Part shown: positions 23,001 to 53,555 of the stretch, piece after piece
Layout of the letters: each line of letters starts with the position of its first letter
Position numbering within the stretch: the first letter of the stretch is position 1
From: Chromera velia
Lineage: Eukaryota
Length of the DNA: 57,506 bases
Assembly: GCA_018398765.1 (NCBI GenBank)
Contig: JAHBMJ010000070.1
Coordinates: 1 to 57,506 of the forward strand
Direction: 5' to 3'
Program-made: the position numbers and the translations under genes
Notes under the pieces: generated by a model
Seen by the model: only the letters and a program-made list of their open reading frames with translations
Databases searched by the model: none
Told to the model about the DNA's origin: nothing

Positions 23001-26000
23001 TGCGTGCTACGCAGTCTTTCTTCTTCCCTTTTCTCTTTTCTTTGATCGTCGCGCTTCTCTCTCGATCACACCCGCCTCTGTGCTGATTGAGCCCAACGTA
23101 AAAAAGCACCTCTAATAAGTGTCTTGCCTCTTTTCTCATCTTCCGTTCCCCTTATTCAAGCCAGTACACATGCATACATACAACGAAGCATAGACAAAGA
23201 GGACCAAAAGAGAAACACCAATAAGAAAATAAAGAAAACAAGAAAAACCAACAAACCAAAACAAAATAAAACAACAAGCAAAAAGCGATGCCAGTGACTT
23301 GCCCCATCCTCGCAAGTCCACTGTACCTTCAGGTGATCCTCAACACCGTGACACGCACACATCGGAACTCCTACTGATCGAACAACGCTCTTTGCTTGAC
23401 ATACCATGCCAGTGCATTATCAAATCAATTCACACTCTGGCCTGACCCCCGACCTGTCGCACTTCCCCATCAAAGCGGCGTCCCAATCAGAGTCCCCCGG
23501 CTGAAGCGTCAGAATCGAACCACTCTTGCCTTCCCCCCATGTGCACATAGTCTCACCTGCATGCACACACAAAGCATGTCGGGGGTCAGGCCAAGCTACA
23601 CTCCATTCTTTTTCGACGACCGCATGTCTTTCTTTTCAGAGTTCTTTATGCAAGCTTACTAGATTGATCTTCCATGCGTGCTACGCAGTCTTTCTTCTTC
23701 CCTTTTCTCTTTTCTCTGATCGTCGCTCTTCTCTCTCGATCACACCCGCCTCTGTGCTGATTGAGCCCAACGTAAAAAAGCACCTCTAATAAGTGTCTTG
23801 CCTCTTTTCTCATCTTCCGTTCCCCTTATTCAAGCCAGTACACATGCATACATACAACGAAGCATAGACAAAGAGGACCAAAAGAGAAACACCAATAAGA
23901 AAACAAAGAAAACAAGAAAAACCAACAAACCAAAACAAAATAAAACAACAAGCAAAAAGCGATGCCAGTGACTTGCCCCATCCTCGCAAGTCCACTGTAG
24001 CTTCAGGTGATCCTCAACACCGTGACACGCACACATCGGAACTCTTACTGATCGAACAACGCTCTTTGCTTGACATACCATGCCAGTGCATCATCAAATC
24101 AATTCACACTCTGGCCTGACCCCCGACCTGTCGCACTTCCTCATCGAAGCGGCGTTCCAATCAGAGTCCCCTGGCCAAAGCACCAGAATTGAACCACTCT
24201 CGCCTTCCCCCCATGCGCACATAGTCTCACCTGCATGCACACACAAAGCATGTCGGGGGTCAGGCCAGGCTATACTCCATTCCTTCTCGACGACCGCATA
24301 TCTTTCTTTTCAGAGTTCTCTATGCAAGCTTGCTAGATTGATTTCCTATACGCGCTACGTATGCAGTCTTTTTTCTTCTCTTTTCTCTTTTCTCTGATCG
24401 TCGCTCTTCTTTTTCGATCACACCCGCCTCTGTGCTGATTGAGCCCGACGTAAAAAGGCCGTACCTTTAATAAGTGTCTTGCCTCTTTTCTTATCTTCCG
24501 TTCCCCTCACCCAAGCCTACGCATATACATATACACAACGAAGCATAGACAAAGAGGACCAAAAGAGAAACACCAACAAGAAAATAAAATATACAAGAAA
24601 ACACAGCAACAAAACAAAACAAAATAATAAGTAAAGAGCGATGCCAGCGACTTGCCCCATCCTCGCAAGTCCACTGACAGTGTACATTTAGGTGATCCTC
24701 AACACTGTGACACACATATGTCGGAACTCCTACTGATGAAACAATGCTCTTTGCTTGACACACCATACCAGTACATTATCAAATCAATTCACACTCTGGC
24801 CTGACCCGCGATCTGTCATACTTCCCCATCGAAGCTGCGTCCCAATCAGAGTTCCCCGGCTGAAGCAACAGAATCGAACCACTCTCGCCTTCCTCCCATG
24901 CGCACACAGTCTCACCTGCATGCATATACAAAGCATGTCGGAGGTCAAGCCAGGCTACACTCCATTCCTTCTCGATAACCGCATGTCTTTCTTTTCAGAG
25001 TTCTCTATGCAAGCTTGCTAGATTGATCTTCTATGTGCGCTACGCAGTCTTTCTTCTTCTTTTTTCTCTTTTTTCTGATCATTGCTCTTCTCTCTTGATC
25101 ACACCCGCCTCTATGCTGATTGAGCCCAACGTAAAAAAGCACCTCTAATAAGTGTCTTGCCTCCTTTCTTATCTTCTATTCCCCTCACCCAAGCCTACGC
25201 ATATGCATACACACAACGAAGCATAAACAAAGAGGACGAAAAGAGAAACACCAACAAGAAACCAAAACATACAAGAAAACATAGCAATAAAACAAAACAA
25301 AACAAAAAGTAAAGAGCGATGCCAGCAACTTGCCTCATCCTCGCAAGTCCACTGTACCTTCAGGTGATCCTCAACACCGTGACACGCACACATCGGAACT
25401 TCTACTGATGGAACAACGCTCTTTGTTTGACACACTATGCCTAGCACCATACCAGTGCATCATCAAAACAATTCACACTCTGGCCTGACCCCTGACCTGT
25501 CGCACTTCCCCATCAAAGCGGCATCCCAATCAGAGTCCCCCGGCTGAAGCGTCAGAATCGAACCACTCTTGCCTTCCCCCCATGTGCACACAGTCTCACC
25601 TGCATGCACACACAAAGCATGTCGGGGGTCAGGCCAAGCTACACTCTATTCTTTCTCGACGACCGCATGTCTTTCTTTTCAGAGTTCTCTATGCAAGCTT
25701 ACTAGATTAATCTTCCATGCGTGCTACGCAGTCTTTCTTCTTCCCTTTTCTCTTTTCTCTGATCGTCGCTCTTCTCTCTCGATCACACCCGCCTCTGTGC
25801 TGATTAAGCCCAACGTAAAAAAGCACCTCTAATAAGTGTCTTGCCTCTTTTCTCATCTTCCGTTCCCCTTATTCAAGCCAGTACACATGCATACATACAA
25901 CGAAGCATAGACAAAGAGGACCAAAAGAGAAACACCAATAAGAAAATAAAGAAAACAAGAAAAACCAACAAACCAAAACAAAATAAAACAACAAGCAAAA

Positions 26001-28527
26001 AGCAATGCCAGTGACTTGCCCTATCCTCGCAAGTCCACTGTACATTCAGATGATCCTGAACTCCTACTGATGGAACAACGCTCTTTGCTTGACATACCAT
26101 GCCAGTGCATCATCAAATCAATTCACACTCTGGCTTGACCCCTGACCTGTCGTACTTCCCCATCGAAGTGGCGTCCCAATCAGAGTCCCCCGGCCGAAGC
26201 GCCAGAATCGAACCACTCTCGCCTTCCCCCCATGCGCACATAGTCTCACCTGCATGCACACACAAAGCATGTCGGGGGTCAGGCCAGGCTACACTCCGTT
26301 CCTTCTCGACGACCGCATGTCTTTCTTTTCAGAGTTCTCTATGCCAGCTTGCTAGATTGATTTCCCATGCGTGCTACGTATGCAGTCTTTCTTCTTCTTT
26401 TTTCTCTTTTCTCTGATCGTCGCTCTTCTCTTTCGATCACACCTGCCTCTGTGCTGATTGAGCCCAACATAAAAAGGCACCTCTAATAAGTGTCTTGCCT
26501 CCTTTCTCATCTAAGACTTCCGTTCCCCTCACCCAAGCCAGTGCACACGCATAACAAAGAGGACCAAAAGACAAACACCAACAAGAAAACAAAAGACACA
26601 AGAAAACACAGCAACAAAACAAAACAAAACAACAAGCAAAGAGCGATGCCAGCAACTTGCCCCATCCTCGCAAGTCCACTGTATATTCAGATGATCCTCA
26701 ACACCGTGATAAGCATACGTCAGAACTCCTATTGATGGAACAACGCTCTTTGCTTGACACACCATGCTAGTACATCATCAAAACAATTCAGTGATACACT
26801 CTGGCCTGACTTCCGACCTGTCGCACTTCCCCATTGAAGCGGCATCCCAATCAGAGTCCCCCGGCCGAAGCACCAGAATTGAACCACTCTCTAGACCACT
26901 CTCACCTTCCCCCCATGCACATACAGTCTTATCTGCATGCACACACAGAGCATGTCAAGGGTCAGGCCAGGCTACACTCCATTCCTTCTCGACGACCGCA
27001 GGTCTTTCTTTTCAGAGTTCTTTATGCCAGCTTGCTAGATTGATTTCCCATGTGCGCTACGCAGTCTTTCTTCTTCTTTTTTCTCTTTTCTCTGATTGTC
27101 GCTTTTCTCTCTCGATCACACCCGCCTCTGTGCTGATTGAGCCCGATGTAAAAAGGCACCTCTAATAAGTGTCTTACCTCCTTTCTCATCTTCCATTCCC
27201 CTCACCCAAGCCCATGCATACGCATATACACAACGAAGCATCGACAAAGAGGACCAAAAGAGAAACACGAACAAGAAAACAAAAGACATAAGAAAACACA
27301 GCAACAAAACAAAACAAAACAACAAGCAAAGAGCAATGCCAGCAACTTGCCCCATCCTCGCAAGTCCACTGTATCTTCAGGTGATCTTCAACACCGTGAC
27401 ATGCATAGTCACGTCGGAACTCCTACTGATAGAACAACGCTCTTTGCTTAACACACCATGCCCGTACATCATCAAAACAATTCACACTCTGGCCTGACTC
27501 CCGACCTGTCGCACTTCCCCATTGAAGCGGCATCCTAATCAGAGTCTCCCGGCCGAAGCACCAGAATTGAACCACTCTCTAGACCACTCTCACCTTCCCC
27601 CCATGCGCATACAGTCTCATCTGCATGCACACACAGAGCATGTCAAGGGTCAAGCCAGGCTACACTCCATTCCTTCTCGACGACCGCAGGTCTTTCTTTT
27701 CAGAGTTCTTTATGCCAGCTTGCTATATTGATTTCCCATGTGCGCTACGCAGTCTTTCTTTTTCTCTTTTCTCTTTTCTCTGATCATCGCTCTTCTCTCT
27801 CGATCACACCCGCCTCTGTGTTGATTGAGCCCGATGTAAAAAGGCACCTCTAATAAGTGTCTTACCTCCTTTCTCATCTTCCATTCCCCTCACCCAAGCC
27901 CATGCACACGCATACACACAACGAAGCATCGACAAAGAGGACCAAAAGAGAAACACGAACAAGAAAACAAAAGACATAAGAGAACACAGCAACAAAACAA
28001 AACAAAAAGTAAAGAGCGATGCTAGCAACTTGCCCCATCCTCGCAAGTCTACTGTATCTTCAGGTGATCCTCAACACCGTGATATGCATAGTCACGTCGG
28101 AACTCCTACTGATAGAACAATGCTCTTTGCTTGACACACCATGCCAGTGCATCATCAAATTAATTCATACTCTGGCCTAACACCTAACCTGTCGCACTTC
28201 CTCATCGAAGCGGCGTCCCAATCTGATTTAGAGTTCCCCGGCTGAAGCGCCAGAATCGAACCACTCTCGCCTTCCCCCCTATGCGCACACAGTCTCACCT
28301 GCATGCACACACAAAGCATGTCGGGGGTCAGGTTAGGCTATACTTCATTCCTTCTCAACGACTGCATATCTTTCTTTTCAGAGTTCTCTATACCGGCTTG
28401 CTAAGCCTTTATTGATTTCCCATGCGCACTGCATAGTCTTTCTTCTTCTCTTTTCTCTTTTCTCTGATCGTCGCTCTTCTCTCTCGATTACACCCGCCTC
28501 TGTACTAATATACTGATTGAGCCCGAC
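17023..28527. repeat. Tandem array of 17 diverged ~680-bp units (11.5 kb)
   Basis: Marker gtcgggggtcaggcca (or variants) at ~17478, 18164, 18830, 19508, 20183, 20856, 21546, 22221, 22903, 23578, 24252, 24936, 25621, 26271, 26953, 27642 and 28320; spacing 650-690 bp. Confidence 0.95.
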
Positions 28528-30844: not shown

Positions 30845-33800
30845 TCAAGAATCGGGATTGGCTCTTTCGTGGCTCTCAGTCGAATTTTCCCACGATCTGA
30901 CGGAAGCTTTCAAGGATTCTTCCACCACGACATCTAGCTCCCTCTTGTCGGCCCGTGTGTCCAATAAGTACGAAGGCAGGTGCAGACTAACGACCCTCCA
31001 GCCGTCCCTCTGAAGGAACCAATGCTTGAATACAGAACGCCCGTGGAGACGGAGACGCTGCTTCAGAGGCCCACCCAGGGACGGAGTCGGAATGGCTTCA
31101 TCTACTCCGTGCGCAGGAATCCTTCGAGGAGTCTGGGGGGAATTGACTGTCTGTTTCTGCGCCCCTTCAACGACCTTTTGAGGCACACGACTTGGACGGG
31201 GGGACTGCCGAGGGGGGAGGGGGGGGGTTCCCACACGAGAGGACGCAGGAGGGGCTGGGGGAAGAGGAGAGACGGAAGAGGGCGTCGGAGGCAGATGTGC
31301 AAGTACAGGACGGCCTTGCATTTTTGCTCTTCCCTCTCTTCTGAAATAACTTGGGTTTTGGGGGTGTGCATCGTGAAGGGGCGTGCTGCACATGGAGGTG
31401 TGGGAATGTCTTTGTGCTTCGTTTGTATCCTGGTGCGGAATGGTAGGGGGGTTCTGTGGGAGATTGCCTCTCTCTGAAATTGGCCTCCTGGGGGATAGAG
31501 GAGGGGGCAGGGGGGCATTGAAAGGCTCGGCCGGCATCTCCAAGACTTCCGTGTCTCGGCCGGGGCCCTTTTCCAGAAGGGACCTGCCGGGGCCGTCTCT
31601 TACAGATGTAGTTAGGAGGCGGCAGGCGGTCTCGACATGAGGTGCGTTTTGGACAGCAACTTCCTTTCGAGAACGGGTAGGGACAGGGGAAGGCACTTGA
31701 AAGGGTTTCCGTGTGTGCACAGGGGGCCGTCCCTCTCCAGGTCGGCCGCTTCTACTTTTGTGCTGCAGGCTCATCATCTGATGGGTTTCTGTGTGGGCCA
31801 TCTCATCTGACACTCCGGCAAGGCTCTGTACTTCGCCACTTCCTATCGGACCCCCTACATTTCTTGATGTTAGAGAGGGGTCCCCAAAATACGCATCATG
31901 CGAGTATTTATTCTCTGCAGCTGCGTCTGCCCGGACAAGAAAATGCGAAGCACCGTCCACCTCCACAGCCAGCCGGAGAGAGGGGACAGCAATATCCACC
32001 AACATCCCCGCGCCCCCAACCGGTTCCTCCATCCTCCAATCCACACACTCAGATGGCAAAGGCGCAGAGGAGGTCTGTTCTTGGAGCTCAGGACAGACAG
32101 AGTAGAGGTCCGCGTAAGTTGGGAACCGCTCGCGAAGGTGTCCAGCAACCTGCAGAGTCAGAAGAGGAGGTGCGAGGAAGCAGAGATGCTTCAGAATTGA
32201 GCAACCGACCATGAAAAAAAGAAACCTGACGATCATCTCGAGGGGGTATTTGAGTTGAGAGGAGGAAGGGAAGACAAGTAAGCAACATGCTTCCTGGTAT
32301 AGTGGATATTGAAAGTTTTTCCTCCTCCTTCCGATCTGACGGTCAAGTGAACTTCTTGTCTTTGAAACTTCAATAAATTGTCAGGAAGTGAAAAGGAGTT
32401 GAGAGAATTGGTTCTCCTCTGTACCTCTTTTTCTCCGGTCGGACTGGCTGAGTGAGGGAAGAAAAAAGAAAACGAAATCTTGTGAATGCAGATCATTCTG
32501 AGCGCACTCTTCCAACAATCGATTGGCGGAAAGGGAAAGAGAATTTGTTGAAAGACTGTCCACTGTACGTGAGGGGGGAAGGAAGAGACGAGGGAGTGAG
32601 GCGGTCTCTTCTCAACGCGAAAGAGAAGAGAAGAGAGGAACACAAAGATAAGGAGGGCGCAGGATTGTCTTCCCTTCTCACACAGAGACTGCAGTTGCCT
32701 GCTTCATGCGCAAACAAGTACAACAAAGTGCTTAAGCAAAGCATGTATGGGTTACGATGAACAGGAGAGCAGGAACGAACATAGAAAGGAAGCCAGCAGC
32801 CACGGAAGCAAATGAAGGGAAGAAAGCGAAGAGAAGAGAGGGGACGGTGGAAAGGAACGAAGAACAGGGAACGGGTGGAAGAAAAGAAGGCAAGGAAGGA
32901 TGATGACAGAAAAAAAAGGGGGGAAATAAACAAGAGACAACCCACCCACCATCACATGCAACCTGGATGTTGAGGCTCGAAAGTCGTGTGCACTCATCGA
33001 CCTCTCATGTCTCGAGAGCACAGACAGACTCTCAAGCCAGCCTCCAGACGTAGAGCCAGACTCTTCACTTTCATTAGTCAAATCTCTTCTCTCAGAAAGA
33101 CTTTCCCCCTCTTCTTCCTCTTGTCTTTGTCCTTCTCCCTCAATTCTCTGAAAGGACTCCCTCTTCCCTTCAGCAACTCCCCCCACACGCTCCCGTCTGA
33201 CTGTCTTCAATCCATGGAGAGCCCACGTGATTTTCTGTGCCGCCTGCACATGTCCTGCAATTCTGTCAGGCGGCAGAGTCATCACCAGCGCCTCCGCGCG
33301 TTCACACACAGACAGGCCTTCAGGATTCCTCACCCCCCCCGACACCACTGCTGCCCAAAAGGGCCCACTCAGAAGGTGCAGGGAGCCCTCCGTCAGTGCC
33401 AGGGAGAGACGAGACACCCCTCCTGACCGAGCTATCGACTCGAAACACTCCACACTTGCACGGAGACAGAGAACAGCAAGTCTTCTTGCTTCTCTTACTA
33501 CCTCGATCTCGTCTGGTAACATCGTTGAAGCGTCCCGTCTTTTTGCTTCCTTCCCGATTTCCCCTCCTCTCTCTTCAAGCAGTTCTAAGTCAATGTGACC
33601 AAGAGAAGCAACTGCAGCAACACAGGGTGTGAATCTGGCGAGGTCTGTGTTGCTGATTCCCAGGCCTCTCCCTCTGTGCCCCCCCCCCTCTACCGGTTGA
33701 GAACAAAGACCCGAGAGATGAACTGAAAGAAGCCGCATCAACGGAAGCTGGGCGGAGGGAGACAGGACTCCCACATAATTCAAACCCATCAACGCAGCAG

Positions 33801-41201: not shown

Positions 41202-44200
41202 TTACCATGCAAACTTAATCACAAAAGCAGGAAGCGTACGGCGAGACTCCCTGACAACAAAAAATCCAGTGGTGTGGTCACTTTTCTTGCAGACACGGGC
41301 TCGGACGAGAAGCATTTTGCTGCCTCCTCTACAATAACTATGGGAAGTGTTCGGGTCGCATCCCAAATAAACGCCCCTCCCATGTGCATCTCCACTCGAA
41401 ATCCGCACACCGTCTTCCCCCCCCGCTTTGAGACCGTTCTCTGCGATGCTCATCATGTTCTGTTCCGGCGTGCCGTGCACACAGATGTGCTCTTCAAGGC
41501 GACAGCCGCACTTCTGTTCGTGCGCCTTGCTTGCCGCCTCGAACTCCTTCAAAAGCTGAGGGTTGTTCACCACCTCCACTCCCTGGACCTTCCATGTGGA
41601 GTGGGCCCTTAGGCGAAGAAAACCTGCCTCCGCAATGCACCACTGCTGGGCGTTCCGTTCCAGTCAGGCACGCTCAGCGCGGAGGGAGGAGGTCGGGTCA
41701 GGTCAACCAGCGGCCTCCTGGAGGAAAGAACGCGTGGAGGTGCAACGGCAGCCTGCGTAGAGGTGTCAAAGCGCACAACGAATTTGGGGAGGGCGAGGGC
41801 CTCATCGTAGATGATCAACTCGTCGTTCCGCACCCCCCCGTGCCGAGTCGTCTCTCTAGGGGCCATGACAGAATCAAATCCTGCCATTTGCATCTTCGAA
41901 AGATCCACATCGAACCATCTTCCCTGACTGTTCTTCTTGACGGCATCACTCAATGACTTCGGCATCTTCGTGTTGAAGCCCGCACTCAAATTCAGAACGC
42001 GACCCTTCACGACCTCACAGACGATCAGAAGACCGCTGCCCTTCGTGTACAGTCGCTGCGCGGACTTCGTGGAGTTTCTCGCGAAGTACACACCCTGCCC
42101 GAACATGTTTGTGTCCTTCCTCTCAGGCAGCCGGAAACCAGTCTTGCAAATGGCATCCGTCGCCTCGGCAGTGGTCCCATGAAAGAGCAACTCTGGGTCG
42201 AGCTGGTGGGGTCGTGTGTGTCTGCATTCACGCAGCCGTCTCTTCGCTTCGTGAAACCGTTTGGTTAGGGATGCGTTGACGACGACTTCGATGTCCACTA
42301 CGACGAGGGCACCGTGGTGCGCTTGCAGCGCGGAGTGCTCGGTGAGGTCCTTGATTCGGAGGTACTGGTCGCCCCAGTCGGGGTCCTCGTGGGTGATGCG
42401 GCGTCTGACTATGTTAGTGCGCTCGAGCTTCCGGAGTTCTTGCTGGCCCTCTTCGTGAATCATGCGGAGGACATCTCTGTTCATCTCCTCCAACTTCCTT
42501 TCCTCTACCTCTCGGAGCCTCTCACACTGACGGCACTTGTCGGGGTCCAGACAGGGGTCTGAACACTTCTGCGTGCACGGGTGACTGTATGCACACGCAA
42601 GGGGGCGGTTGCAGATGGAGTGACAAACGACACGGTCCACCTGCTGATTGCAGTGCTTCTTCAACTCCTTGTGGGAGGGGTCGCGGGGGCAGGGGATGAG
42701 CTGCTCTACAGAGCACTCAGATGCCTCCAAACACCTCTCGCCACAGCGATTCGGACAAACATGACCACAAGAAAGGGTGCGCAGACAGGGTCTCTGACAG
42801 TCGAGCGGTTCATTGCGCAGAGAGCACTGCGTCTTACCGGGACGATGACACTTCTGGCACGTAACGGAGACGGGAAACTTGCATGCACGGCTCCCGTCCT
42901 CTTCCCGCACTCTGCACTGCACAGTCCACTTGTGCTTGTCGGGCTCTATTTCACAAACCATCTGCACACTGTCCGTGCAGAGGTCCGCCTTGTGGAAACT
43001 CTCATTGTCCCCGTGACAGGTCAGACGGCACTCATGCAGACGGCATTCTTTCACACAACCGCACAGCTCTCCGCAGAGAGACAACTCAGCAGACGGGTCT
43101 AAACTGTCGGGGGTGCTGCTGGAGAGCTGTCTCGCTTTTCCCTTGTGCTTGTCACAGGAGAGCTGCAGAGTTGAGGTAGGACTGAGGGAGTTGACAAGAG
43201 CGCCCCATACAGGGGCGGGTCGGAAGGTGGCAGCGTTTCCGACAAACACCACCAGGCTGCGGGCACGGGACTGTGCGACGCACCTTCTGTTTCTTTTGGA
43301 AAGGAACCCGATCCCTTTCTTCTGGTTGTTTCGGGTCATCGACACAATCACAACGTCATCCTCGTCCCCCTGGAACTCGTCAACTGTCACCACATTCACA
43401 CGCCGGTCCTCCCGACGGAGGGGCCCCGGCATGCCTTGCCCCTCGCCCTTGCCCATTCCCCCCTCCTGGGGCCTCTTGTGGGCCCTGTGGGGGTCCACGT
43501 AGACTACTCAGGCAAGCCTGGAGTCACTCCGTGCGAAGTCCTCAACCCTGCGACGGATGAGAATCTTCTGCCCAACATAGGCAGCAAGGATGGTGACTGT
43601 CATACCGCAGTTGCCTGCGATCAGCAGGGCCAAACGCACGCACAGCTCTGCCTCGTTAGAGTTGCTCTTGGAGGTCGACGAAGGCCCCCCTCCTCCTTCA
43701 GACAGGTCCCCTAACTCGGGGTGTGCGTGGTCCCACCAGATGGCGTGTCTGGCACTGGGGGAGGATCTGAGGCAGAAGGGAAGGGGGATCTCGGATACTC
43801 GCGAGTGGTTGTCCCTCAGATGCGGATAAATATCCAAAAGAAGCCGGGAAATCTCCGGATGCATCCTGTTCTGCATGGACAGTTGGCAATTGCCCCTCAA
43901 GCCTGCCTGCAACAGTCTCTCGAACATGGAAACATCAAAGCGGTTGTGAAGGACAAGATCGTAGCTGTTCACAGGCGGTCTCAGCTGTTCGTGGTCGCCT
44001 ATGAGAATGAGGTGTTTGACGGAAGGGGGGAGCGCTGCTCTAAGGGCGGGCTCGCTGATTTCTGCTGCCTCTTCGACGATGCAGACGGTGGGCTGGAGCT
44101 CTCTGAGCAGATCCATCTGGATGCATGCGTTGGTGATCGTCATCGCAACAACGCGGGCATGGGTCTTCAATGCGTCTGCATCTGAACGGCACTGGGCACC

Positions 44201-47200
44201 TCTTAGCTGGCGCTGGACGCTCAGGAGCGTGCGTGAGTGCTCTCGGAGGTGTTTGATTTGGGGAGAAATCCTGCGGAGGATCAGACCGAGAGCCAGCGGC
44301 TATGCGTCAGTGAGGGGGTCGAGAGCCTCTAGCTCGGCATCGCTCTGAGAGGATGACGCAGAAAGGGGCAGGGAGGGAATGAAACGATTGTTTTGGGACT
44401 CCAACTGGAGGGCAAAATGGAGGAGACGGGTGGGAGAGAAGTCAATGGGGAAGAACTTGCTTCTCTCTTCATCGTCCTTCTTTCCATCCTTTCCCTTCTT
44501 CCCTCCCCTATCCCCCCCTGTCCAAAGAAGATTCTCTAGTTCTCTCCTCTCCCGCGTCTCCTCTATCACCGCCTCCTCATCCTCCTCTATCTCCCCCCCC
44601 TCCTCCCCCTCGTCTGATGACCCGTCCTCCTCCACATGTCCCTTCTCAGAACCTCTCCCTTGAGCCCCCCCTGTGTGTTGCTGCGTCTTCTGTGACGGAC
44701 CACTCGAGACTTTCTCGCCCGCTTTCTTCCACACCGCAACCCTGCCTCCAGTCCCCCCCAAAGCAACAGAGGTCGAATTGGAGGGAGAGGGCACAGGCAA
44801 AACAGCAGGCACCCACGTGGACCGCGTGGGACCAGAGGAGGACAAGGAGGAAGTGGAGGGTCCTTCCTGGACGACTCTCTCTGTGTGGCTGGCTGCTTTG
44901 GGGTTCTTCGAGGATTGTTGGGTTTGGGGAAGAGGCTTGTGAGGCGGAAACGGGTCGGTACGGAGCGAATCGGGTGCGCGCTCATTTTTGAGGTGGGAAG
45001 ACTTCCACCCCTCTACCGCGAGAGCGAGAAGACGCCACTCATCCCTGTCGGAGAAGACCGACGAGATGGCCTTCCCACTTGCCAATCTCCCAATTACAAC
45101 CTTCTTCAAACCCTCCCAGTACCTCCGGTTGTCCTCATCGACAGCCTTGTCCTTCCTTCTCCGCGCAAGCTCGCGCACGTCTGCGAGCGCAACGATTTTC
45201 TGTACGGCTTCTACCCCCATCCCATCACGAACATCCTCCGGACCGAGAAGGGAAACCACGAGGTCTGCGGGGGTCTGCCGATGCCCGCTGGTCTGGGAGG
45301 ACAGAGACGGGTCCTGAGAAACGTACAGAAATAGGGGGAGAAAGTAGAAAGTTATTCCTTCTGTTGTCACACTGGAAAAAAACATTGTCATGTCCTGCTC
45401 CTGCCACTTTTGTTGTTTTCAAAGCGCTGTATGCTTTGTGTGCAGACAAACTTCTAATGCAAAAAAGTACTGAGTCTGCAAACGCTTCGATTCGTATTTT
45501 TGTGAGACAAATTAGAGCGTCCCTCTAGGATTCAACGAGGGTCGGTCGGCAGAGAGCAGGCCGGGGAGAAATTGAGGAGTCTGATACTACTGGAACTTCT
45601 TAATCAAACAAGCTGGCTGACCTCTGTGTCGCCATCACCCTTCTTTCTGGCGTTGCCAAACATTCCCTCGAGTGCACTACACAGACGCCGAAGCTCAGTC
45701 TCCAAATCTTTCCTTTTCTCGAAAAGCGATTCTCCCTCTCCCTTTGCCGCCTTCCCCTTCCGCTTCCTCCCCCCCCCCAACAAATCCTCATCCTCCTCCA
45801 TCTGTTGCCGTCTCGAGTCATTCCTGACCCGGAAAGATGCCAACGAACACGCCTCGAGCTCCTCATCCTGACTCCGGCTGCCAAGCCGCGCCACCACAGA
45901 GAAGCCCATCGCCCGACCGCAATGTTTGGAGAACTCATCTAGTGCATGATTCTTGTAGGTCAGCACTAGCACGGGACTCGCACGCCCTCTAGAGAAGGAG
46001 GCTGAACCTCTGAGTCCAAATTGATCTGCTTCAAAGTGCTGGTGTAAAGTGTCCCACAGCATCTCTGCAACCATTGAGCCTACAAATGTCTTTCCCGTCC
46101 CCGGGGGACCCTGCACGAGGGCCAGGCGATGGGACAACGTCGCCATCACCGCTTTCTTCTGCTTCTCGTCAAGAGAGACCTCTTGCTTCATCTGTATGCT
46201 CTTGCGCCTCTCCACCTCCCTCACCCTCTCTTCCAGAGGCACACAGTCGTGCTGGAGATACTCAGGGGGTCCGTTCTCCCCCCGCACCTGCACAATCAAA
46301 TCAGACACCGAGGGACCTCTCAAGGGGCCTGGGGGAGGTTCCACGTCTTCCCCTCCCTTACATCGCTGAAGGGACCGAAGGACTGGCTCCACGCTGTTGT
46401 AGTACACAGGGGACCGGAGGGCACACAGCTCCCTTTTGTCCCCCAAAACTGCAAGCGCACGCAGGCCCGCGTCTGCCGTGCGGCTCTGTTCCCCCGCCCT
46501 CAAATTCCCGCTTTCCCCCCCCGCGTCGATCTGCTGAAGAGACCTAGGCTGTAAATCGAGCACCAGAGCTCCACTCGCCCCTCCCTCCATAACGTCCTCA
46601 ACAGTACAAAAGAGAAGCTCGGAAAATCCGTCTCCCAGACAGAGACAGAGAAGCTCACCAAATTTGACCTGCACCCGTCCCCCCCCCCTCCCCTTTCCCT
46701 TCACCGGGGCCCTCCACGGTCTCAAACTGACGCACAGATTGAAAGGCGATTCGAGGGGCCGAGCCGCGGCACTCACGCGGAGAGTCCGCACGCCCTCAAC
46801 CCGGCAGCGGCAGAGGAATCGCTCCTCAATCCTGCTGGGTGCAGACCCACCCCTCAGCTTCTGCACTAACTGCCTCAATTCACCATGCATGTCCTCTCTC
46901 AACAACTTCGCGTACGTAGAGAAGTACTCTGACGCAGACGCGTACGTGTTTTGGACCACTGGGAGTGCCGTTTTCCCCCCTCCCCCTTTCCCGACCGACG
47001 GGTCGCTTCCCCCTCGAACAAGAAAGTCCAATGCGCAGGGGAGTGCAGGAAGCGAATGCCACGGCATGTGCTGCACGCTCCCCGTGTGGAGCGCCAGCCC
47101 CTCCTCCATTGCATCTGACACAGTCTGTGCAAGTGCCGCAAGAACCCCACCCGCTGGACCCACGGAGAGCGCACGGAACAGCGCAAAGCAGTCGTTCAGC

Positions 47201-48569
47201 CCACGGGGAGTCAACGCAGACCAGCAGCCAAGAAGGGAAATTGCCTTGACAGCACACGAGCTGCTGAGCCCCCTCATTCCTCCCCTTGCAGCGGAGATCA
47301 ACTTCCCACTGCACTGCATCAGGAGTTTCTGCACTACTGCAGCCACAGCCCCGTTCGCATCAGTCAGACCGCACAAAGCCCTGAAGTCTCTCCTCCCCAA
47401 CCGCTGTGAGGCTTCACTGAACTTCCAGAGAAGCTCGAAAGACTCCTCAGTCAATCTCACACTGTCCCCCCTCCCTCCCGATTCCTCCTCTTCCGTTGAC
47501 AAGGCAGAGACGGAATAACGGAGACAGCAGAGAACGAAGGCACACCACGCCGCAGAGTTCCATGCCTTGTCGTCTCCGTGCGAGAGGATGCGCTCCGCCC
47601 CCTTCTTTTCCTCCCACGCCTTTGCCTGCTCGACCATCAGTCTGAACTCATTCACACGCGGCCCCCCACCCAAGTGCCCCCGTCTCCCCTGCCCCCCGGC
47701 TTCGCTCAACGTCATGTGCTGGACAATCACTGTCGGACCCTTTCCGAAGTCTTTCACCACCGCCTTCACAGACACAGAGTCACCCACTCGGAGCATGATG
47801 GGTCCGGTTCGCAGAAGATCTTCCCTTTCTCCATGCGCGGAGGTGCAAGAGAGAAAGGGAATTGAGTCACGAGAACCCTGACCGGTCATCCGCCACCTAC
47901 CCAGCCAGCGAGAAATTTATGTGCTATCGATCGAGATATTTGGATGTTGGAGCTAGCAGTGGGACGAAATGCAGAGAAACGAGGAACGTCAAACAGAGAT
48001 GGGACAGAGGCGGAGACGTGAATGAAGCAAGTCTTGCGTGGAGAACGGGTATACTCGAGCACCCGTCTGCCATGCAGCACCGCGATCAGAATTCGCCCCT
48101 TCTAACTCACTTTTTGGTATGGCCAGCTCCATCGGCAGGGTCGTCGCCTCTTCACAGGTGTTTCTTTGAAGTGTGTCTTCGGATAGACGAAGTCTGATCG
48201 AGTCCCCAACTTCACGCGTGACGGTAGCCAGGCCCTCCAGGCGCCCAAGGACGGGGACAGCCGGATTCGCAGGCCTCTTGTCCTTGCCTTTCATTCTCCC
48301 AGCTCTGAGTTGAGGAGGAAGGTAAAGATACCTCGCAGAACTTCTCTGCCCCTTTACGGAGACGGGAGACGATTTGCACCACAAAGCTTCTCAGATTTGG
48401 TGAGTGCTACAGGATGAAAGTAAACGCCTGCATGCGAGGACACTTCAAAGACGAAGGGAGCCAAGTTCAGCACACTGAGAGACTCGAAATGATCAGCGTA
48501 TTGAACCACGCCGGGCTGTGCAGACCGTCTGTCACCAGCCGAGTCATTTCGGCCTTTTGGGGCGTCCAT
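41202..48569 (-). pseudogene. ZNFX1-like SF1 (Upf1-like) RNA helicase + NF-X1 zinc fingers + two PARP/ADP-ribosyltransferase domains; reading frame disrupted
   Basis: ZNFX1-type motifs YFSTYAKLLREDM and SPVYYNSVEPVLRSLQ. Helicase motifs VQGPPGTGKT, LTYKNHALDEF, IVEEAAEISE, LIGDHEQLRP, SMFERL, QNRMHPEIS, TVDEFQGDE, RRCVAQSRAR. Cys/His fingers (CGHVCPNRCGERC). PARP1 LFHGT..FGQGVYFA..NDELIIY; PARP2 VHGT..AHGRGVYLG..SHSY..TLPAFVIKF. Intron 45621-45314. In-frame TAG 44302-44300 and TGA 43510-43508; frameshift ~41650. 5' exons (47889-48569) unresolved. Confidence 0.85.
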
Positions 48570-48659
48570 TTTGGTCGGTCCCCAAAAAACTGGACCATGC
48601 AGCCGCCAATCCCGGCTATGCCCCGGGGGCCTTTTGGGGCGTCCATTTTGGTCGGTCCC
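48551..48659. repeat. 32-bp perfect direct repeat in the intergenic region
   Basis: GGCCTTTTGGGGCGTCCATTTTGGTCGGTCCC at 48551-48582 and 48628-48659. Confidence 0.9.
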
Positions 48660-48943: not shown

Positions 48944-51900
48944 ATGGAAATCCCTCCACGGCTGCAGCAGCTGTTCAAGGAGGTGCCTGCAGAATGGCAC
49001 GCAACTGCTCTGAGGGCCTTGAAGGTCGCAGAGGCGTACGCAGGGACGGGCAACAGTGAAGGACGCCAAGGGACACGTCTGGTTGTGTGCAAGGTTGATG
49101 ACTTCCTTCCCAAGGGTGACGACGCTCAGACTGGGGTGGACGCAGCATCTCAGATAACAACCTCATATGGAGGTGTGAGCAAGGACAACATTCGGAAATT
49201 CCCCAAAGACATCAAGACTGAAGAGGGGAGGAGTGACTTGTGCGAACGGATGAACGACGACGGGGCACTCATCATTGACGGTCCAACCGGTGAGTTTGGG
49301 GCCTAGCTCTTGCTTCCCTCTAAAGTATCGGGTCTTACTGTCGTCTCACTGGCATTCATTCTGCCCTCTTCTCTGTGTCTCCCTTGTTCTCTCAGGTGAG
49401 TTTCGGGCCTCCGGTTTCCGTCTGAAGTACGAAGGGACAGCACCCTCCACTGGGGGGGGGCTAGGTGCAGCAGCTTCCCAGGAGTGTGCAAAGAATGTGC
49501 CCGCCTTCGTGGTGATGGTTTCAAAGGACGGTGCTATAAAGGTCTATGCAGGAAAAGCAGATCCTGTAGTCTGGAAGGGGGACAGAAAAGTAACGCCTCC
49601 CCAAATTCGTAAAAGATATCCCCCCAGCCTGAAACCGCGTAGAGGACAGGGAGGGGACGACTTTTTCTTTGGCAGAAAAGGACCCTTGGAGCAGCTGCTA
49701 GGATGGGTGGGCAGTGACAGAGAAGAGGGGGGGGGGCAGGGTGTCAGCGAAAGTTTTGTGCAGGGAGAGCCGTTCATCCTCATCTCGGGAATTGGGGGGG
49801 TGGGCAAGAGTCAGTTGGCCTGCGAGGTGCTCCACCGTTGCGAGTTGCCTCTGACAAAGATTTGGATCAACGCAGCCTCGCCTGAGCGTTTGCAGAGAGA
49901 GTTAGAGCAGCTTTGCGAAGACTTCAAGGAGGTGGGGGTAGCAGTCTCCAGTAGTTCTCAGCTGCGTGGGTGGTTGGAGAGAAACCGTCACTGGATTCTG
50001 GTGGTGGACAATTTAGAAGACCCAGAGCTTCTATGGGATTTCATTCCGAAAAACCATAACGGCACAGTGGTGATCACCTCTCGTGATGATTCCAATCCCA
50101 TGACACCCCCTCCCAAAACGATGAGACTCGACACACTGCAACTCCCAGATGCCCAGATACTTCTTCAGACACTCGGAAAGAGGCCCGATGACGTCAGTGG
50201 TTCCGAAAAGCTTGCAAAGGTTCTCGGTTGTCTGCCTCTAGGCCTCGTGATGGCTTCCTCCCTTGTCGCACAGAAGAGAGGGATGCTGTCTTTCTCTGCT
50301 CTGGCAGAAAGAGTCGAATCAGAGAGGGAAGAGGTGGTGGCGTTCCTGGAGAGCATAGGGGAAGTGCAGGAATGGACTGGGTATCAGCACAGCATCATTA
50401 GTCTGTGGAGACAGCAGAGGGAATTCCTTTGTGAAAATGGGCTGAAGAGGGCAGCCGTGGTGATGGAGTGTCTCTCCTTCGCAGACAGAACCGAAATCTC
50501 TCACGAGATCTGTCAAATGGTCAGCCGGCGTATAGCGCGGCGTCGAATGAAGGAATTGACTCCATGAAGACGAAAGCGCTTGTCCAAACTGCAGCACTTT
50601 GTTTGAGCATTCATTTATTTATGCATCCATTCATTCATTCATTCATTCATTTACCCATTCTCTCAATCACTTAATCAATCATTCGATCAATCCAGTCGAC
50701 CATCAATCGCCCGTGAATTTATTTCTTCATTCATCCATGCGCTCATCATTCTTCTTCATGGTTCTTCGTGATGCACGTAGACTGGGAGTCCTCGAACGAC
50801 AACCCAGCGCTGATGGTTTCCCACTGAGCGAACGTTTGTATCTTGACATTTTACTTTCCCTGCCTGTCTCGCTCGCAGATATTTGAGACGTGCAAAGCCA
50901 AGGACGGCAACACGGGTTATGGCGTGCAGTCCGGAAATTTCTCTTCCTGTGTCAACGCTCTTCCTGCGCAGTCTCTCTGTACAAGACTGTCAGAGGAACA
51001 GAAAGCAGAAAACAAACGAGGAGGTTTGGGGGGGTCAATTGTGCCTACCGGGTTTCAGAGAGAGGAGTTTGCAGTGAAACAGTGGTACACCATTCATGAG
51101 CTCACGCAGCTTGCCGTCCGTATGGAAATGCGAAGAAAATTGGGNNGGGGGGGGCACAGCTTCAGAGGAGAAAGAGCGTTTCAATCTAATGGCATGGGCG
51201 ATGTTTGTGGGCAGACGCACGAGCAGGTGGGAGCCCGAAGATCTCGAATGCAGATTTCCCACACCGTCAGGCAGGCACACCCACCAGCTGCAACTGTTGA
51301 AAAGATGGGCCCACGCGGTTGAGAAGAAAGAGGCGTGGGCAGAGGTGGAGGTTGGGGAGGTGAGGGCGCTGATGCTGTTGTGTCTCTGGTTTGAGAGACT
51401 GTTCTTCCAAGTCCACTGGAGTCAGCGTATCCTGCGTCCGTGGCTATTGAACGAAATCGAGAAGCACTGGTCTAAAAGTCGATCTCAGTCTGGTTCTGTG
51501 CTTGTTGCAGAAATTGTCAGAGAGTGCCTCCTCGAAGTCGTGTACGATGAGAAAGTGCACCTCGGAAAGGCGGTTGCCGTTCTTGCGCACATTCTTCGGA
51601 GTTTCATATGGGGCGATGTCGAGTGGCAGGGGACTTTGTTTGCACACATCGCGAGGGACAGACAAGACTCTGTCTCTCTACCCTACCGATCTCTCATCAG
51701 AATGCTGTCTCTGAAGATCCCCCACCTTTCTATCAGACCCAGAATCCCCCTTCTGCTAATCAGCGCTCGTCATCACCTCCAAGAGGGGGATGGCGAGGGG
51801 GCTGCTCGGCTCCTTCTCCTGTTGACCGACGATGTGAGCAAAAGAGGAGTCTCAGAGTTAAAGGGATTCATTCAAGAGATTAAGCCGTCTCTTCAAGATG

Positions 51901-53555
51901 CCCTCTCCCTTCTCCAGAATACCCAAGACGCAGCATGGCACTCTGCCCCTCGAGTCTCTGCTTCCCGCTCCTATGTTGTCAAACAGATCACAAAGGAACC
52001 CCCCAATAGTGATCTCATCTCACGGCGTCACCTCTTCGCCTCTCTTGTATGCAAGGCCGGACTTGAGCGGCTCCTCGGGTACCGCGCTCGCTCTGCAGAG
52101 ACTCTGGGCATGGCCTCCGCGCTGTTGCCCGACCGTTTCTCTGACGGCTTCCGCGGTCAGTTAAGCGCTGTCCTTCCGACCCTTGCGAGTGGCAGCGGTA
52201 TCCGTATCGAGTCTGCCAGTGCAGCCGCGGACCGTTTCTCCCCCGACACTTCCCCAGTGGACTGTGAAGATCTCTCTGCATTCTTCAGAGCAAGAAACGC
52301 GATGTGGACAGAGGTCGGAAACAAGAAACCCACGCAGACCCCCACCGCAAGAGCGATGGGAAGGGGCTGCCTCGAAGTAGCAGCATCGATAGACCAGGCA
52401 GTACAGCAGAGTCGGAAAGTTGCCGAAAAGAGGTTTGAGGAGGACCGCCGTCTTGCGAGGCTATTTGATTTTTTGGACCTCATGGTCGTGGGTGAGTATG
52501 CAGAGGCACACGCACGTCTTGTGCCTGTCTTTCTCAGCACTCTGACCGCAGAGGGGGAGAACAGTCCCTGGGACTGGAAAGCACGGTTCCAACTCTTCGT
52601 GCTCCTCGCATACATCCAGCTTATCCCTCAGCTCTCACAGCAGCAGTTGGAGAGTGGGGGGATCTCCTTACCTAACCCAGAGCTAGCACTTCAGACGTTC
52701 AGCCACAAGGTCTCTCGAGGCTTCCCAGGAAGGTCAAACAAGTTAGCAAGTCTCCAGAGGATGTTCAGTGAGGCCCCCTCTCTGTATCGCTACGAGCTCT
52801 TTGAGTTTCTTGTGTGGCGCGCAGTCGACAAATTCGTTTCCGAGGTGTGTGGAGAGGGGGACGGGAGTCTTGAGGGAAGCTGCCTAGAGGCACTCGAGCT
52901 CGATTTGCAGGAGGCAGTGGGGGGGGAAGACACATTGGGGTGGACGGGGTGGGAGAGAGAGACAGCTCGAAGCGTTTCGTTCTATCCAGAATTCGAAAAG
53001 TGGAGACTTTTGCATCCAACGAATAGAGGAATTCTCTACTGGCTGCTCCCTGCTTCAGTCCGTCTCCTGCAGGAGAGGGGGCAAGTCGAGAGAGTCTCGG
53101 AGTTCGAGAGAATGGGAGAGATTTGCATGGTGATGGAATCTGATTCAGAGCCTTTGGAGGTTCACCGAGAGTCGGTAGAGAGAGAGGAAAGTCCGCCTGT
53201 TGCAGCACTTGAGAGAAGGAAGAGTGTTGTGTGGGCAGAGGTCAAGGCAGCGTTAAAGGAACGAAACAAAAAAAGAAAAGGGGGAGAACCGCCGCTTTTG
53301 CTGGAGCTTCCCAGAAAATTCAAAGAGCTCTCTTTTCTGGAGGATAAATTCCACATTGAAGGAGCTCGTTTCATCTCTTCCGTATCACAGGAGAGTCTCT
53401 CTAGGAAGTCTGTATTCTTCTCAACGATCATGACGATGAACTTCAGGCAGATGTCCCACGACGATTGTATGGAGTCGAAAAAGCTGAAAGACCTCTCACC
53501 GGACGAGCCCATTCACAACAGACTCTTTCTCCGGGTGGTGTGGAATGAAGATTGA
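48944..53555 (+). CDS. NLR-like STAND protein: N-terminal DisA_N/diadenylate-cyclase-like domain + NB-ARC + long helical C-terminus, ~1380 aa
   Basis: Exons 48944-49289, 49396-50519, 50879-53555; the frame switch at 51142-51154 lies in a poly-G containing NN. DAC-like: EGRQGTRLVV..MNDDGALIIDGPTG|EFRASGFRL..GGGLGAAAS..VVMVSKDGAIKVY. NB-ARC: FFGRKGPLEQL, Walker A GIGGVGKSQLA, WINAAS, Walker B WILVVDNLED, VITSRD, LGCLPLGL, MHD-like YTIHELTQ. Confidence 0.8.

What the first reader, a model, noticed from the sequence alone, without database searches (positions are those of the whole stretch)
48944..50519. Eukaryotic NLR-like receptor with a diadenylate-cyclase (DisA_N/DAC)-like N-terminal effector domain
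Seen: removing intron 49290-49395 gives an N-terminal ~180 aa reading ALKVAEAYAGTGNSEGRQGTRLVV...ERMNDDGALIIDGPTGEFRASGFRL...GGGLGAAASQECAKNVPAFVVMVSKDGAIKVY, followed directly by a complete NB-ARC module. Known: DAC domains follow the pattern (E/R)GxxxG(T/A)hhhh...DGAhhh..G.h.AAG.hL...GxRHxAA...hhhVSxxGxhxhh. They are prokaryotic c-di-AMP synthases and need head-to-head dimerisation. STAND NTPases activate N-terminal effectors by oligomerising, as in TIR-NLRs. Inference: this is a DAC-NLR that could couple pathogen sensing to cyclic-dinucleotide signalling, or use the DAC fold as a nucleotide sensor or decoy, in a protist. I know of no described DAC-NB-ARC immune receptor in this lineage. The ORF track splits the domain in two, so it is easy to miss.
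Basis: partly seen in the sequence, partly recalled or inferred. Interest (0 to 1): 0.9.

Follow-up and report, generated by a model that had tools for sequence, protein, structure and literature searches.

The report
Disarmed c-di-AMP cyclase on algal NLR
An intron-split gene, likely from the alga Chromera or a close relative, joins an NLR-type ATPase switch to a domain predicted to fold like bacterial c-di-AMP synthases but lacking their catalytic arginine; the same domain sits on a Chromera caspase-like protease, so it likely works as a docking module in defence or cell-death signalling rather than as a messenger-making enzyme.

Summary
Removing GT-AG intron 49290-49395 joins a ~176-aa N-terminal domain to a STAND (NB-ARC-like) ATPase. 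The gene runs on past a second intron and an NN gap to 53555 (~1,380 aa), with a helical, possibly TPR-like tail. A model of a close paralogue matches only diadenylate cyclases (Z 12.0; best non-DAC 4.7).

The domain is probably not a c-di-AMP synthase. DGA is kept, but the RHR motif is G-A-A, and losing that arginine abolishes activity in two published DACs. It belongs to a wider, apparently protist, DAC-like family (35 true profile hits); the arginine column reads Gly in 25 of 41 aligned rows and Arg/Lys in 14. Ten Chromera-type Arg-less copies form one clade. In Chromera the domain sits on five other STAND genes, one with a transcript-sourced record, and on a caspase-like protease, a GTPase-like protein and a coiled-coil protein.

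Best reading (inferred, ~45%): a pseudo-enzyme used as a CARD-like homotypic adaptor. Rivals are a nucleotide sensor or decoy, and a remodelled active enzyme. I found no description in the papers searched. This gene's own transcripts and any activity are untested.

The parts
48944..49289 (+). Exon 1: ATG, first 115 codons plus one base; N-terminal half of the DAC-fold domain
   Evidence: 55% identity to paralogue N-termini
49290..49395 (+). Intron 1 (GT-AG, 106 nt, phase 1); its two ends carry a 15/16-nt direct repeat (49289-49304 and 49395-49410)
   Evidence: family D13; best of 67 GT-AG pairs
49396..50519 (+). Exon 2: rest of the DAC-fold domain and most of the STAND ATPase
48944..49577 (+). 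DAC-fold domain, residues 1-176 (split by intron 1)
   Evidence: (paralogue model)
49259..49267 (+). DGA motif (D106-G107-A108), retained
   Evidence: D in 38 of 41 family rows
49452..49478 (+). GGGLGAAAS loop in place of the G-x-R-H-R motif; G139 (49464-49466) occupies the catalytic-Arg column
   Evidence: an alternative register (L138) from bacterial-only alignments also has no Arg
49659..51133 (+). STAND (AP-ATPase/NB-ARC-like) module: Walker A 49788-49811, Walker B 49998-50021, sensor-1 50070-50084, GLPL 50226-50246, MHD-like IHE 51092-51100
   Evidence: motif names from established STAND knowledge (recalled)
50520..50878 (+). Intron 2 (GT-AG, 359 nt, phase 0, ATTC microsatellite), inferred
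   Evidence: models of P0001 and P0005 stop matching at this point; GC 0.45 vs 0.54 in exons
50879..53555 (+). Exon 3 (inferred): end of the winged helix, NN assembly gap in a G-run at 51145-51146 where the frame changes, then about 800 codons to a stop
51150..53552 (+). C-terminal region, predicted all-helical, weakly TPR-like; putative sensor
   Evidence: TPR-clan look-alikes 0.88-0.91, weak; pLDDT 37, uninformative; no family hit

Best explanation
The gene encodes an NLR-like STAND ATPase whose N-terminal domain is predicted to have the diadenylate-cyclase fold but lacks the catalytic arginine, and this likely disarmed domain probably serves as a homotypic docking module that would recruit partners carrying the same domain, such as a caspase-like protease. 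Steps: (1) The helical C-terminus senses a trigger (inferred from STAND architecture). (2) The ATPase, whose motifs are intact in the sequence, swaps ADP for ATP and oligomerises (established for STANDs, untested here). (3) The clustered pseudo-DAC domains pair face to face through the old active-site surface, as DAC domains do (a homodimer is predicted for one paralogue). (4) They capture DAC-like domains on effector proteins, bringing the caspase-like protease P0003 into proximity and activating it (inferred by analogy with Apaf-1/CARD/caspase-9 and bacterial effector-associated domains).
For: Fold. Arg loss: column 139 is Gly in the window and in 25 of 41 family rows, while relatives have Arg (10) or Lys (4) there. 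No Arg or His lies in the loop in 6 of 6 close paralogues. The Arg is needed in CdaS and EcPanS, and the GGR motif in VcPanS. P0042, a Chromera DAC-like-STAND protein also recorded from an MMETSP transcript, has lost the Asp and part of the Gly loop too, so the fusion is kept without catalysis. The domain is conserved as well as the ATPase between paralogues (60-66% vs 64-67%). In C. velia it sits on five other STAND genes and on a caspase-like protease with an intact His/Cys dyad (PF00656 E 9.7e-19), a weak GTPase hit, a coiled-coil protein and a protein with kinase-like motifs read by eye. Ten of these domains, including the window's, form one clade (99/92). This matches the pattern Kaur et al. 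use to infer homotypic adaptors (PMC7159879). Homodimer model of paralogue P0005 with c-di-AMP riding along: score 0.44, best of 3 controls 0.04; the mark was reached by 21 of 30 microbial pairs and 0 of 23 single chains (eukaryotes 17 of 29 and 0 of 30); runs agree in at least 44% of contacts, pLDDT at least 79. The interface includes D-G, G-L and the lid loop, i.e. the active-site face.
Against: No receptor-caspase heterodimer was modelled or tested; my one complex job was the homodimer. That pass may be from memory of solved DAC dimers, one of its three runs scored 0.01, and the calibration held no ligand. D106, S158 and D160 are conserved (38, 38 and 35 of 41 rows), and two clade-typical basic residues (R45, R/H124) align near pocket positions, which fits continued nucleotide binding or a remodelled enzyme. 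The partners are varied and some carry the domain C-terminally (P0008, P0010). The sensor region and any immune role are unshown. Most paralogue gene models are truncated before a C-terminal region.
Confidence: 0.45

Rival explanations
1. The domain is a non-catalytic nucleotide binder (sensor, glue or decoy). A cyclic dinucleotide or ATP, for example from bacteria, binds across the dimer and gates receptor or protease assembly, or soaks up a pathogen effector aimed at nucleotide signalling.
For: The ribose-binding Asp, the Leu and the Ser of the pocket are kept. The most conserved residues cluster on pocket motifs (44 invariant positions). The predicted dimer uses the pocket face. Inactive enzyme domains serve as binders or decoys in conflict systems (PMC7159879).
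Against: The phosphate-binding Thr-Arg-His side chains are gone. P0042 has lost the Asp too, yet is a transcribed fusion. The ligand was not scored. An N-terminal position on a STAND is normally the output end (established knowledge).
Confidence: 0.22
2. The domain is a remodelled but active enzyme that is switched on when the STAND oligomer dimerises it. It makes a cyclic dinucleotide or another nucleotide product, with R45 or R124 replacing the lost Arg.
For: DGA is intact. Defence DACs tolerate motif drift (DGF/GGR) and make new products (10.64898/2026.08.10.743927). Position 124 (R/H in 6 of 6 close paralogues) lies in the predicted interface near the other protomer's loop. Family members that keep Arg exist, including one followed by a NACHT-like STAND start (P0023, weak PF24883 E 0.0055). 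RHR-less CdaS still makes AMP.
Against: Even the divergent PanS enzymes need the Arg. R45 and R124 are not shared by the second Arg-less clade. Several members have also lost D or G of DGA.
Confidence: 0.15
3. The fusion is real but has no defence role, or this copy is a decaying or truncated paralogue, with a true frameshift at 51145 or intron 2 unspliced.
For: The frame changes at the NN gap. No database protein matched the C-terminal 801 aa among those fetched, and no family matched it. There is no transcript evidence for this copy. The neighbouring helicase-PARP frame also contains stops.
Against: The frame change coincides exactly with the two unknown bases in a G-run, and about 800 open codons follow. 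All ATPase motifs are intact. At least six genes share the architecture.
Confidence: 0.13

Closest known systems
Diadenylate cyclases (PF02457; DisA, CdaA, CdaS; DacZ/CdaZ type NF041371)
   Same: Predicted fold (Z 12.0, rmsd 3.6 A, 132 aligned to 2fb5), DGA motif, conserved Ser, predicted face-to-face dimer. Arg-retaining relatives hit DacZ weakly (E 9e-5 and 2e-3) and two pass the Pfam cut-off.
   Different: RHR replaced by GAA; no Pfam DAC hit for the window pieces or P0001/P0002; eukaryotic, intron-split and fused to a STAND ATPase.
Defence DACs PanS (Panoptoo/PanDA) and DS-2C/CdaG (10.64898/2026.08.10.743927; PMC13640721)
   Same: A DAC fold in an immune context with divergent motifs.
   Different: Those are active, Arg-dependent bacterial enzymes, stand-alone or with DACNG/DACNH domains, next to 2TM-beta effectors; none is described as STAND-fused in the parts I read.
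Tripartite STAND/NLR-like receptors (bacterial AP-ATPase-TPR such as NF040586; fungal NLRs; plant TIR-NLRs as an analogy)
   Same: N-terminal output domain, STAND ATPase and a helical C-terminal region; STAND part E 2.2e-29 to NF040586.
   Different: The N-terminal domain is DAC-fold; no LRR was found; TPRs are only weakly suggested.
Apaf-1/caspase-9 CARD coupling and bacterial effector-associated domains (EADs; PMC7159879)
   Same: One small domain shared by a STAND protein and by a caspase-like protease and other effectors, expanded in one lineage.
   Different: The adaptor here is an alpha/beta enzyme fold, not a helical Death-like domain; the interaction is untested; gene linkage could not be checked.

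Membership tests
Diadenylate cyclase (PF02457) | DAC fold | tested here: met
   Paralogue P0001 model (62-72% identical to the window pieces): all 37 printed Foldseek rows are DACs, best E 4.1e-4; the six VIA hits with Z 9.6-12.0 are all DACs, next 4.7, of 48,161 chains; Atlas TM 0.68-0.70
Diadenylate cyclase (PF02457) | DGA motif with catalytic Asp | tested here: met
   D106-G107-A108
Diadenylate cyclase (PF02457) | GxRHR (or PanS GGR) motif with catalytic Arg | tested here: not met
   G139 in the family register; L138 in the bacterial-only register; no Arg or His in the loop
Diadenylate cyclase (PF02457) | Pfam gathering score | tested here: not met
   No hit for the window's two pieces or for P0001/P0002 at E<=10; P0004 17.4 bits vs 27; the spliced window protein itself was not scanned against Pfam
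Diadenylate cyclase (PF02457) | Head-to-head dimer | tested here: inconclusive
   Predicted for paralogue P0005 only: 0.44 vs best control 0.04, may be from memory
Diadenylate cyclase (PF02457) | Synthesis of c-di-AMP or a related product | not testable with these tools
   needs an in vitro assay
STAND/NLR-like receptor | STAND ATPase with Walker A/B, sensor-1, GLPL and winged-helix MHD-like motifs | tested here: met
STAND/NLR-like receptor | C-terminal superstructure-forming repeats | tested here: inconclusive
   TPR-clan look-alikes 0.88-0.91 with low recognition; model pLDDT 37; no Pfam hit
STAND/NLR-like receptor | Trigger-dependent oligomerisation and immune output | not testable with these tools
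   needs experiments
Plant/animal NLR in the strict sense | Leucine-rich repeats | tested here: not met
   0 Pfam families at E<=1 for 51150-53552
CARD/EAD-type homotypic adaptor | Same domain on a STAND core and on separate effector proteins, expanded within a lineage | tested here: met
CARD/EAD-type homotypic adaptor | Binding between receptor copy and effector copy | not tested
Panoptoo/PanDA PanS | Minimal stand-alone DAC with GGR motif beside a 2TM-beta effector | tested here: not met
   fused, Arg-less; the neighbour is a helicase-PARP gene

The most novel reading that the evidence does not exclude
Chromera has built an apoptosome-like defence pathway from a bacterial or archaeal signalling enzyme. 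A disarmed DacZ-type diadenylate cyclase domain acts as its CARD equivalent, pairing through the old active site (possibly glued by a cyclic dinucleotide) to hand activation from STAND receptors to a caspase-like protease. Arg-retaining relatives in other protists may be the first native eukaryotic DAC enzymes.
Probability: 0.3. Interest if true: 0.92.

Novelty: new variant of a known kind. Interest (0 to 1): 0.74.

Why it matters
DAC domains were tied to immunity only in 2026 preprints, and only in bacteria. A protist family of DAC-fold domains on NLR-like receptors and on a caspase-like protease would extend this to eukaryotes, add a new N-terminal domain class for STAND receptors, and give a testable model of innate immunity or cell death in the closest free-living relative of apicomplexans. 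Transfection of C. velia has been reported (PMC12407925, title and abstract start in the listing). The family also offers a natural series from Arg-retaining to Arg-less domains for studying how an enzyme becomes an adaptor.

Tried and rejected
No genome was held for the window, so copy number and gene linkage are unknown. No sequencing runs were obtained, so there is no RNA test of this copy.

Sequence searches that did not detect the DAC fold: Pfam and PDB sequences. hhalign against 15 bacterial DACs gave only 27% probability.

Searches that found no close relative: proteins of 927-2645 aa, metagenome contigs with P0002, genome and viral contigs, plasmids and phages (one hit at E 5, unannotated record). 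In 401 genomes of one bacterial phylum there was 1 match, a spurious aminotransferase. A DacZ_P search rang in 0 of 121 genomes and 0 of 14 controls, so it is uninformative. The top plasmid hit of the exon-2 piece was a DACNV-type DAC, but at E 5, so it is not counted as evidence.

The first motif register (RHR = L138-G139-A140) was replaced by the closer-family register (G139-A140-A141). The C-terminal model was unusable and was not fold-searched. Two of 37 profile hits (P0013, HYR repeats; P0027, zinc fingers) were dropped as spurious.

Tree limits: five short or duplicate rows were left out; the outgroup was 12 rows of DACNV-type Bacteroidota DACs only, three of them duplicates and eight mislabelled 'cdaA' in the output; the one-clade test did not finish. 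The tree therefore says nothing about the donor, and one or two Arg losses are both possible. The 43 of 43 RHR count is biased, because the seed alignment required the motif.

Two papers likely to bear on novelty (a DAC architecture survey, 10.1128/jb.00023-23, and 10.1093/nar/gkv1267) were not held. No supplements were read.

Full report
Observation. A GT-AG intron at 49290-49395 has a strong donor and a polypyrimidine acceptor, and removing it opens a frame from ATG 48944. It is the best of 67 candidate GT-AG pairs, 28 of them open, when scored against paralogues. A second intron (50520-50878) leads to the winged-helix end of the ATPase. Two unknown bases in a G-run (51145-51146) coincide with a frame change, and about 800 open codons follow to 53555, giving roughly 1,380 aa. 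Intron 2 and the read-through at the gap are inferred. No RNA data for this copy could be had.

Host. The nearest relatives are Chromera velia CCMP2878 proteins at 60-63% identity. The window's own protein was not returned, so 'Chromera or a close relative' is an inference.

The ATPase. It scores NB-ARC at E 3.2e-5, just over the cut-off, and the STAND part of the bacterial FxSxx-TPR family at E 2.2e-29. Walker A, Walker B, sensor-1, GLPL and an MHD-like IHE are all present (motif names recalled). The C-terminal 801 aa hit no family. They resemble TPR-clan solenoids weakly (0.88-0.91, low recognition), and the single-sequence model is all-helical but unreliable (pLDDT 37). This is an NLR-like STAND, not an NB-LRR.

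The N-terminal fold. Pfam misses it. An AlphaFold2 model of paralogue P0001 residues 1-193 (pLDDT 68, pTM 0.71) returned only DAC structures in the 37 printed Foldseek rows (best E 4.1e-4). Against 48,161 chains the six hits with Z of 8 or more were all DACs (top Z 12.0, rmsd 3.6 A, 132 aligned), and the next was 4.7. The ESM Atlas gave TM 0.68-0.70 to PF02457 clusters, many of DacZ type. For the window's own spliced sequence, an HMM of 43 bacterial DACs gave 11.5 bits against 1.1 and 5.3 for the unspliced pieces and 5.2 for the best of 500 shuffles.

The active site. A review lists the pocket as the GALI Leu, the DGA Asp, Thr-Arg-His of GxRHR, a Ser and a Glu (PMC7288161, passages and section 2.3). 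The window keeps D106, L125, S158 and an acidic D160, but the RHR loop reads GGGLGAAAS. A profile search of 1.84 billion representatives gave 37 hits, two of them spurious. In a 41-row alignment (39 hit domains, the window, and isoform P0042) the Arg column is window G139: Gly 25, Arg 10, Lys 4, Ala 1, gap 1. Bacterial-only alignments shift the register by one, to L138; neither register supplies an Arg. RHR-to-AAA abolishes c-di-AMP formation in CdaS while AMP production persists (PMC4568413, passages). R105A inhibits EcPanS (PMC13640721, abstract, passages, sections 5 and 7). The DGF and GGR motifs are needed in VcPanS (10.64898/2026.08.10.743927, parts 1-3 of 5). Against a simple 'dead' reading, the Asp and Ser stay highly conserved and the Chromera clade has its own basic residues, R45 and R/H124, near pocket positions.

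The family. Sources were looked up for 24 proteins, 23 of them among the 37 hits. Eleven C. velia genes carry the domain. Five put it before a STAND (P0001, P0002, P0005, P0007, P0011/P0042). One puts it before a caspase-like protease with a His/Cys dyad (P0003). The others are a coiled-coil protein that UniRef already names 'DAC domain-containing' (P0004), a weak GTPase hit (P0008), a protein with kinase-like motifs seen by eye and no family hit (P0009), a weak kinesin hit (P0010/P0041) and the divergent P0039. P0042 is also recorded from an MMETSP transcript, so the DAC-like-STAND join exists at RNA level in a paralogue, one that has lost the Asp as well. Beyond Chromera there is an Amorphochlora protein that keeps Arg (P0020), and unnamed proteins fused to COR-A, TPR, PUF, CorA or the start of a NACHT-like STAND. 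Two Arg-retaining members pass the Pfam DAC cut-off and two hit DacZ weakly. In a 48-row tree the window groups with nine Chromera Arg-less domains (99/92), a second Arg-less clade of 11 unnamed rows is separate (99/92), and Arg/Lys members lie outside both (limits under Tried and rejected). One member of the second clade lies on two short transcript-like contigs, one with a 5' end resembling a dinoflagellate spliced-leader relic (motif recalled). That the unnamed members are eukaryotic is likely but not shown.

Mechanism. Shown by sequence: the fusion, the intact ATPase motifs, the Arg loss and the shared domain on diverse partners. Predicted: the fold, and a face-to-face homodimer for paralogue P0005 (score 0.44, best control 0.04; mark reached by 21 of 30 microbial pairs and 0 of 23 single chains, by 17 of 29 and 0 of 30 in eukaryotes; contacts agree at least 44%, pLDDT at least 79; one run scored 0.01; the pass may be from memory of solved DAC dimers). 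Inferred: sensing, oligomerisation and recruitment of partners by like-with-like pairing. Kaur et al. infer adaptor function from this same pattern, a domain shared by core and effector proteins with lineage-specific paralogues, and cite CARD coupling as precedent (PMC7159879, passages). I put this at 0.45, a nucleotide sensor or decoy at 0.22, a remodelled active enzyme at 0.15 and a decayed or non-immune copy at 0.13.

Novelty. Searches for 'diadenylate cyclase' with 'eukaryot' and 'NB-ARC' and with 'STAND NTPase' returned 0 papers. Eight broader searches (listings only, apart from the five papers named) showed nothing on a eukaryotic DAC-STAND. The 2026 preprints treat immune DACs as bacterial in the parts read. 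The library lacks most subscription papers, and two likely surveys were not held, so prior mention cannot be excluded. STAND receptors with swapped N-terminal domains are a known kind; a DAC-fold one, shared with a caspase-like protease in an alveolate, appears to be a new variant. Interest 0.74.

Noticed in passing
window 41202-47916, - strand: Head-to-head neighbour about 1 kb upstream: an Upf1/ZNFX1-like superfamily-1 helicase (AAA_11/AAA_12), a Cys-rich region and two PARP-like domains (E 2.2e-21 and 2.6e-8). Several in-frame stops remain unexplained (short introns or a pseudogene). The ZNFX1 likeness is from recalled motifs. It may form a two-gene defence cluster with the receptor.
   Followed up: partly
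window 49289-49304 and 49395-49410: Intron 1 is flanked by a 15/16-nt direct repeat, so splicing regenerates a GTGAGT donor at the junction. Only 5 of 70,787 GT-AG pairs in the window do this, the other 4 inside a tandem array. It may be an intron gained by duplication or a recursive splice site.
   Followed up: partly
window 48551-48582 and 48628-48659: Perfect 32-nt direct repeat in the intergenic region shared by the receptor and the helicase-PARP gene; possibly a regulatory element.
   Followed up: no
window ~17040-28500: Tandem array of about 17 copies of a ~680-nt unit, 86-96% identical to the reference copy, with strong GC skew.
   Followed up: no
P0020, P0034, P0037, P0023 (not in window): Arg-retaining members of the same family, one from Amorphochlora amoebiformis, are candidate active eukaryotic diadenylate cyclases; P0023 joins one to the start of a NACHT-like STAND.
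   Followed up: partly
L061:1-35: 5' end resembles a relic of the dinoflagellate spliced leader (recalled motif) and the 3' end has a short A-run, hinting that the second Arg-less clade is dinoflagellate.
   Followed up: no
window 30845-32380, - strand: Weak RAP-domain hit (E 0.001, below cut-off).
   Followed up: no
L001:621-4147: Hymenobacter plasmid: a patatin-like phospholipase gene directly upstream of a DACNV-type DAC with intact RHR, possibly a defence pair.
   Followed up: no
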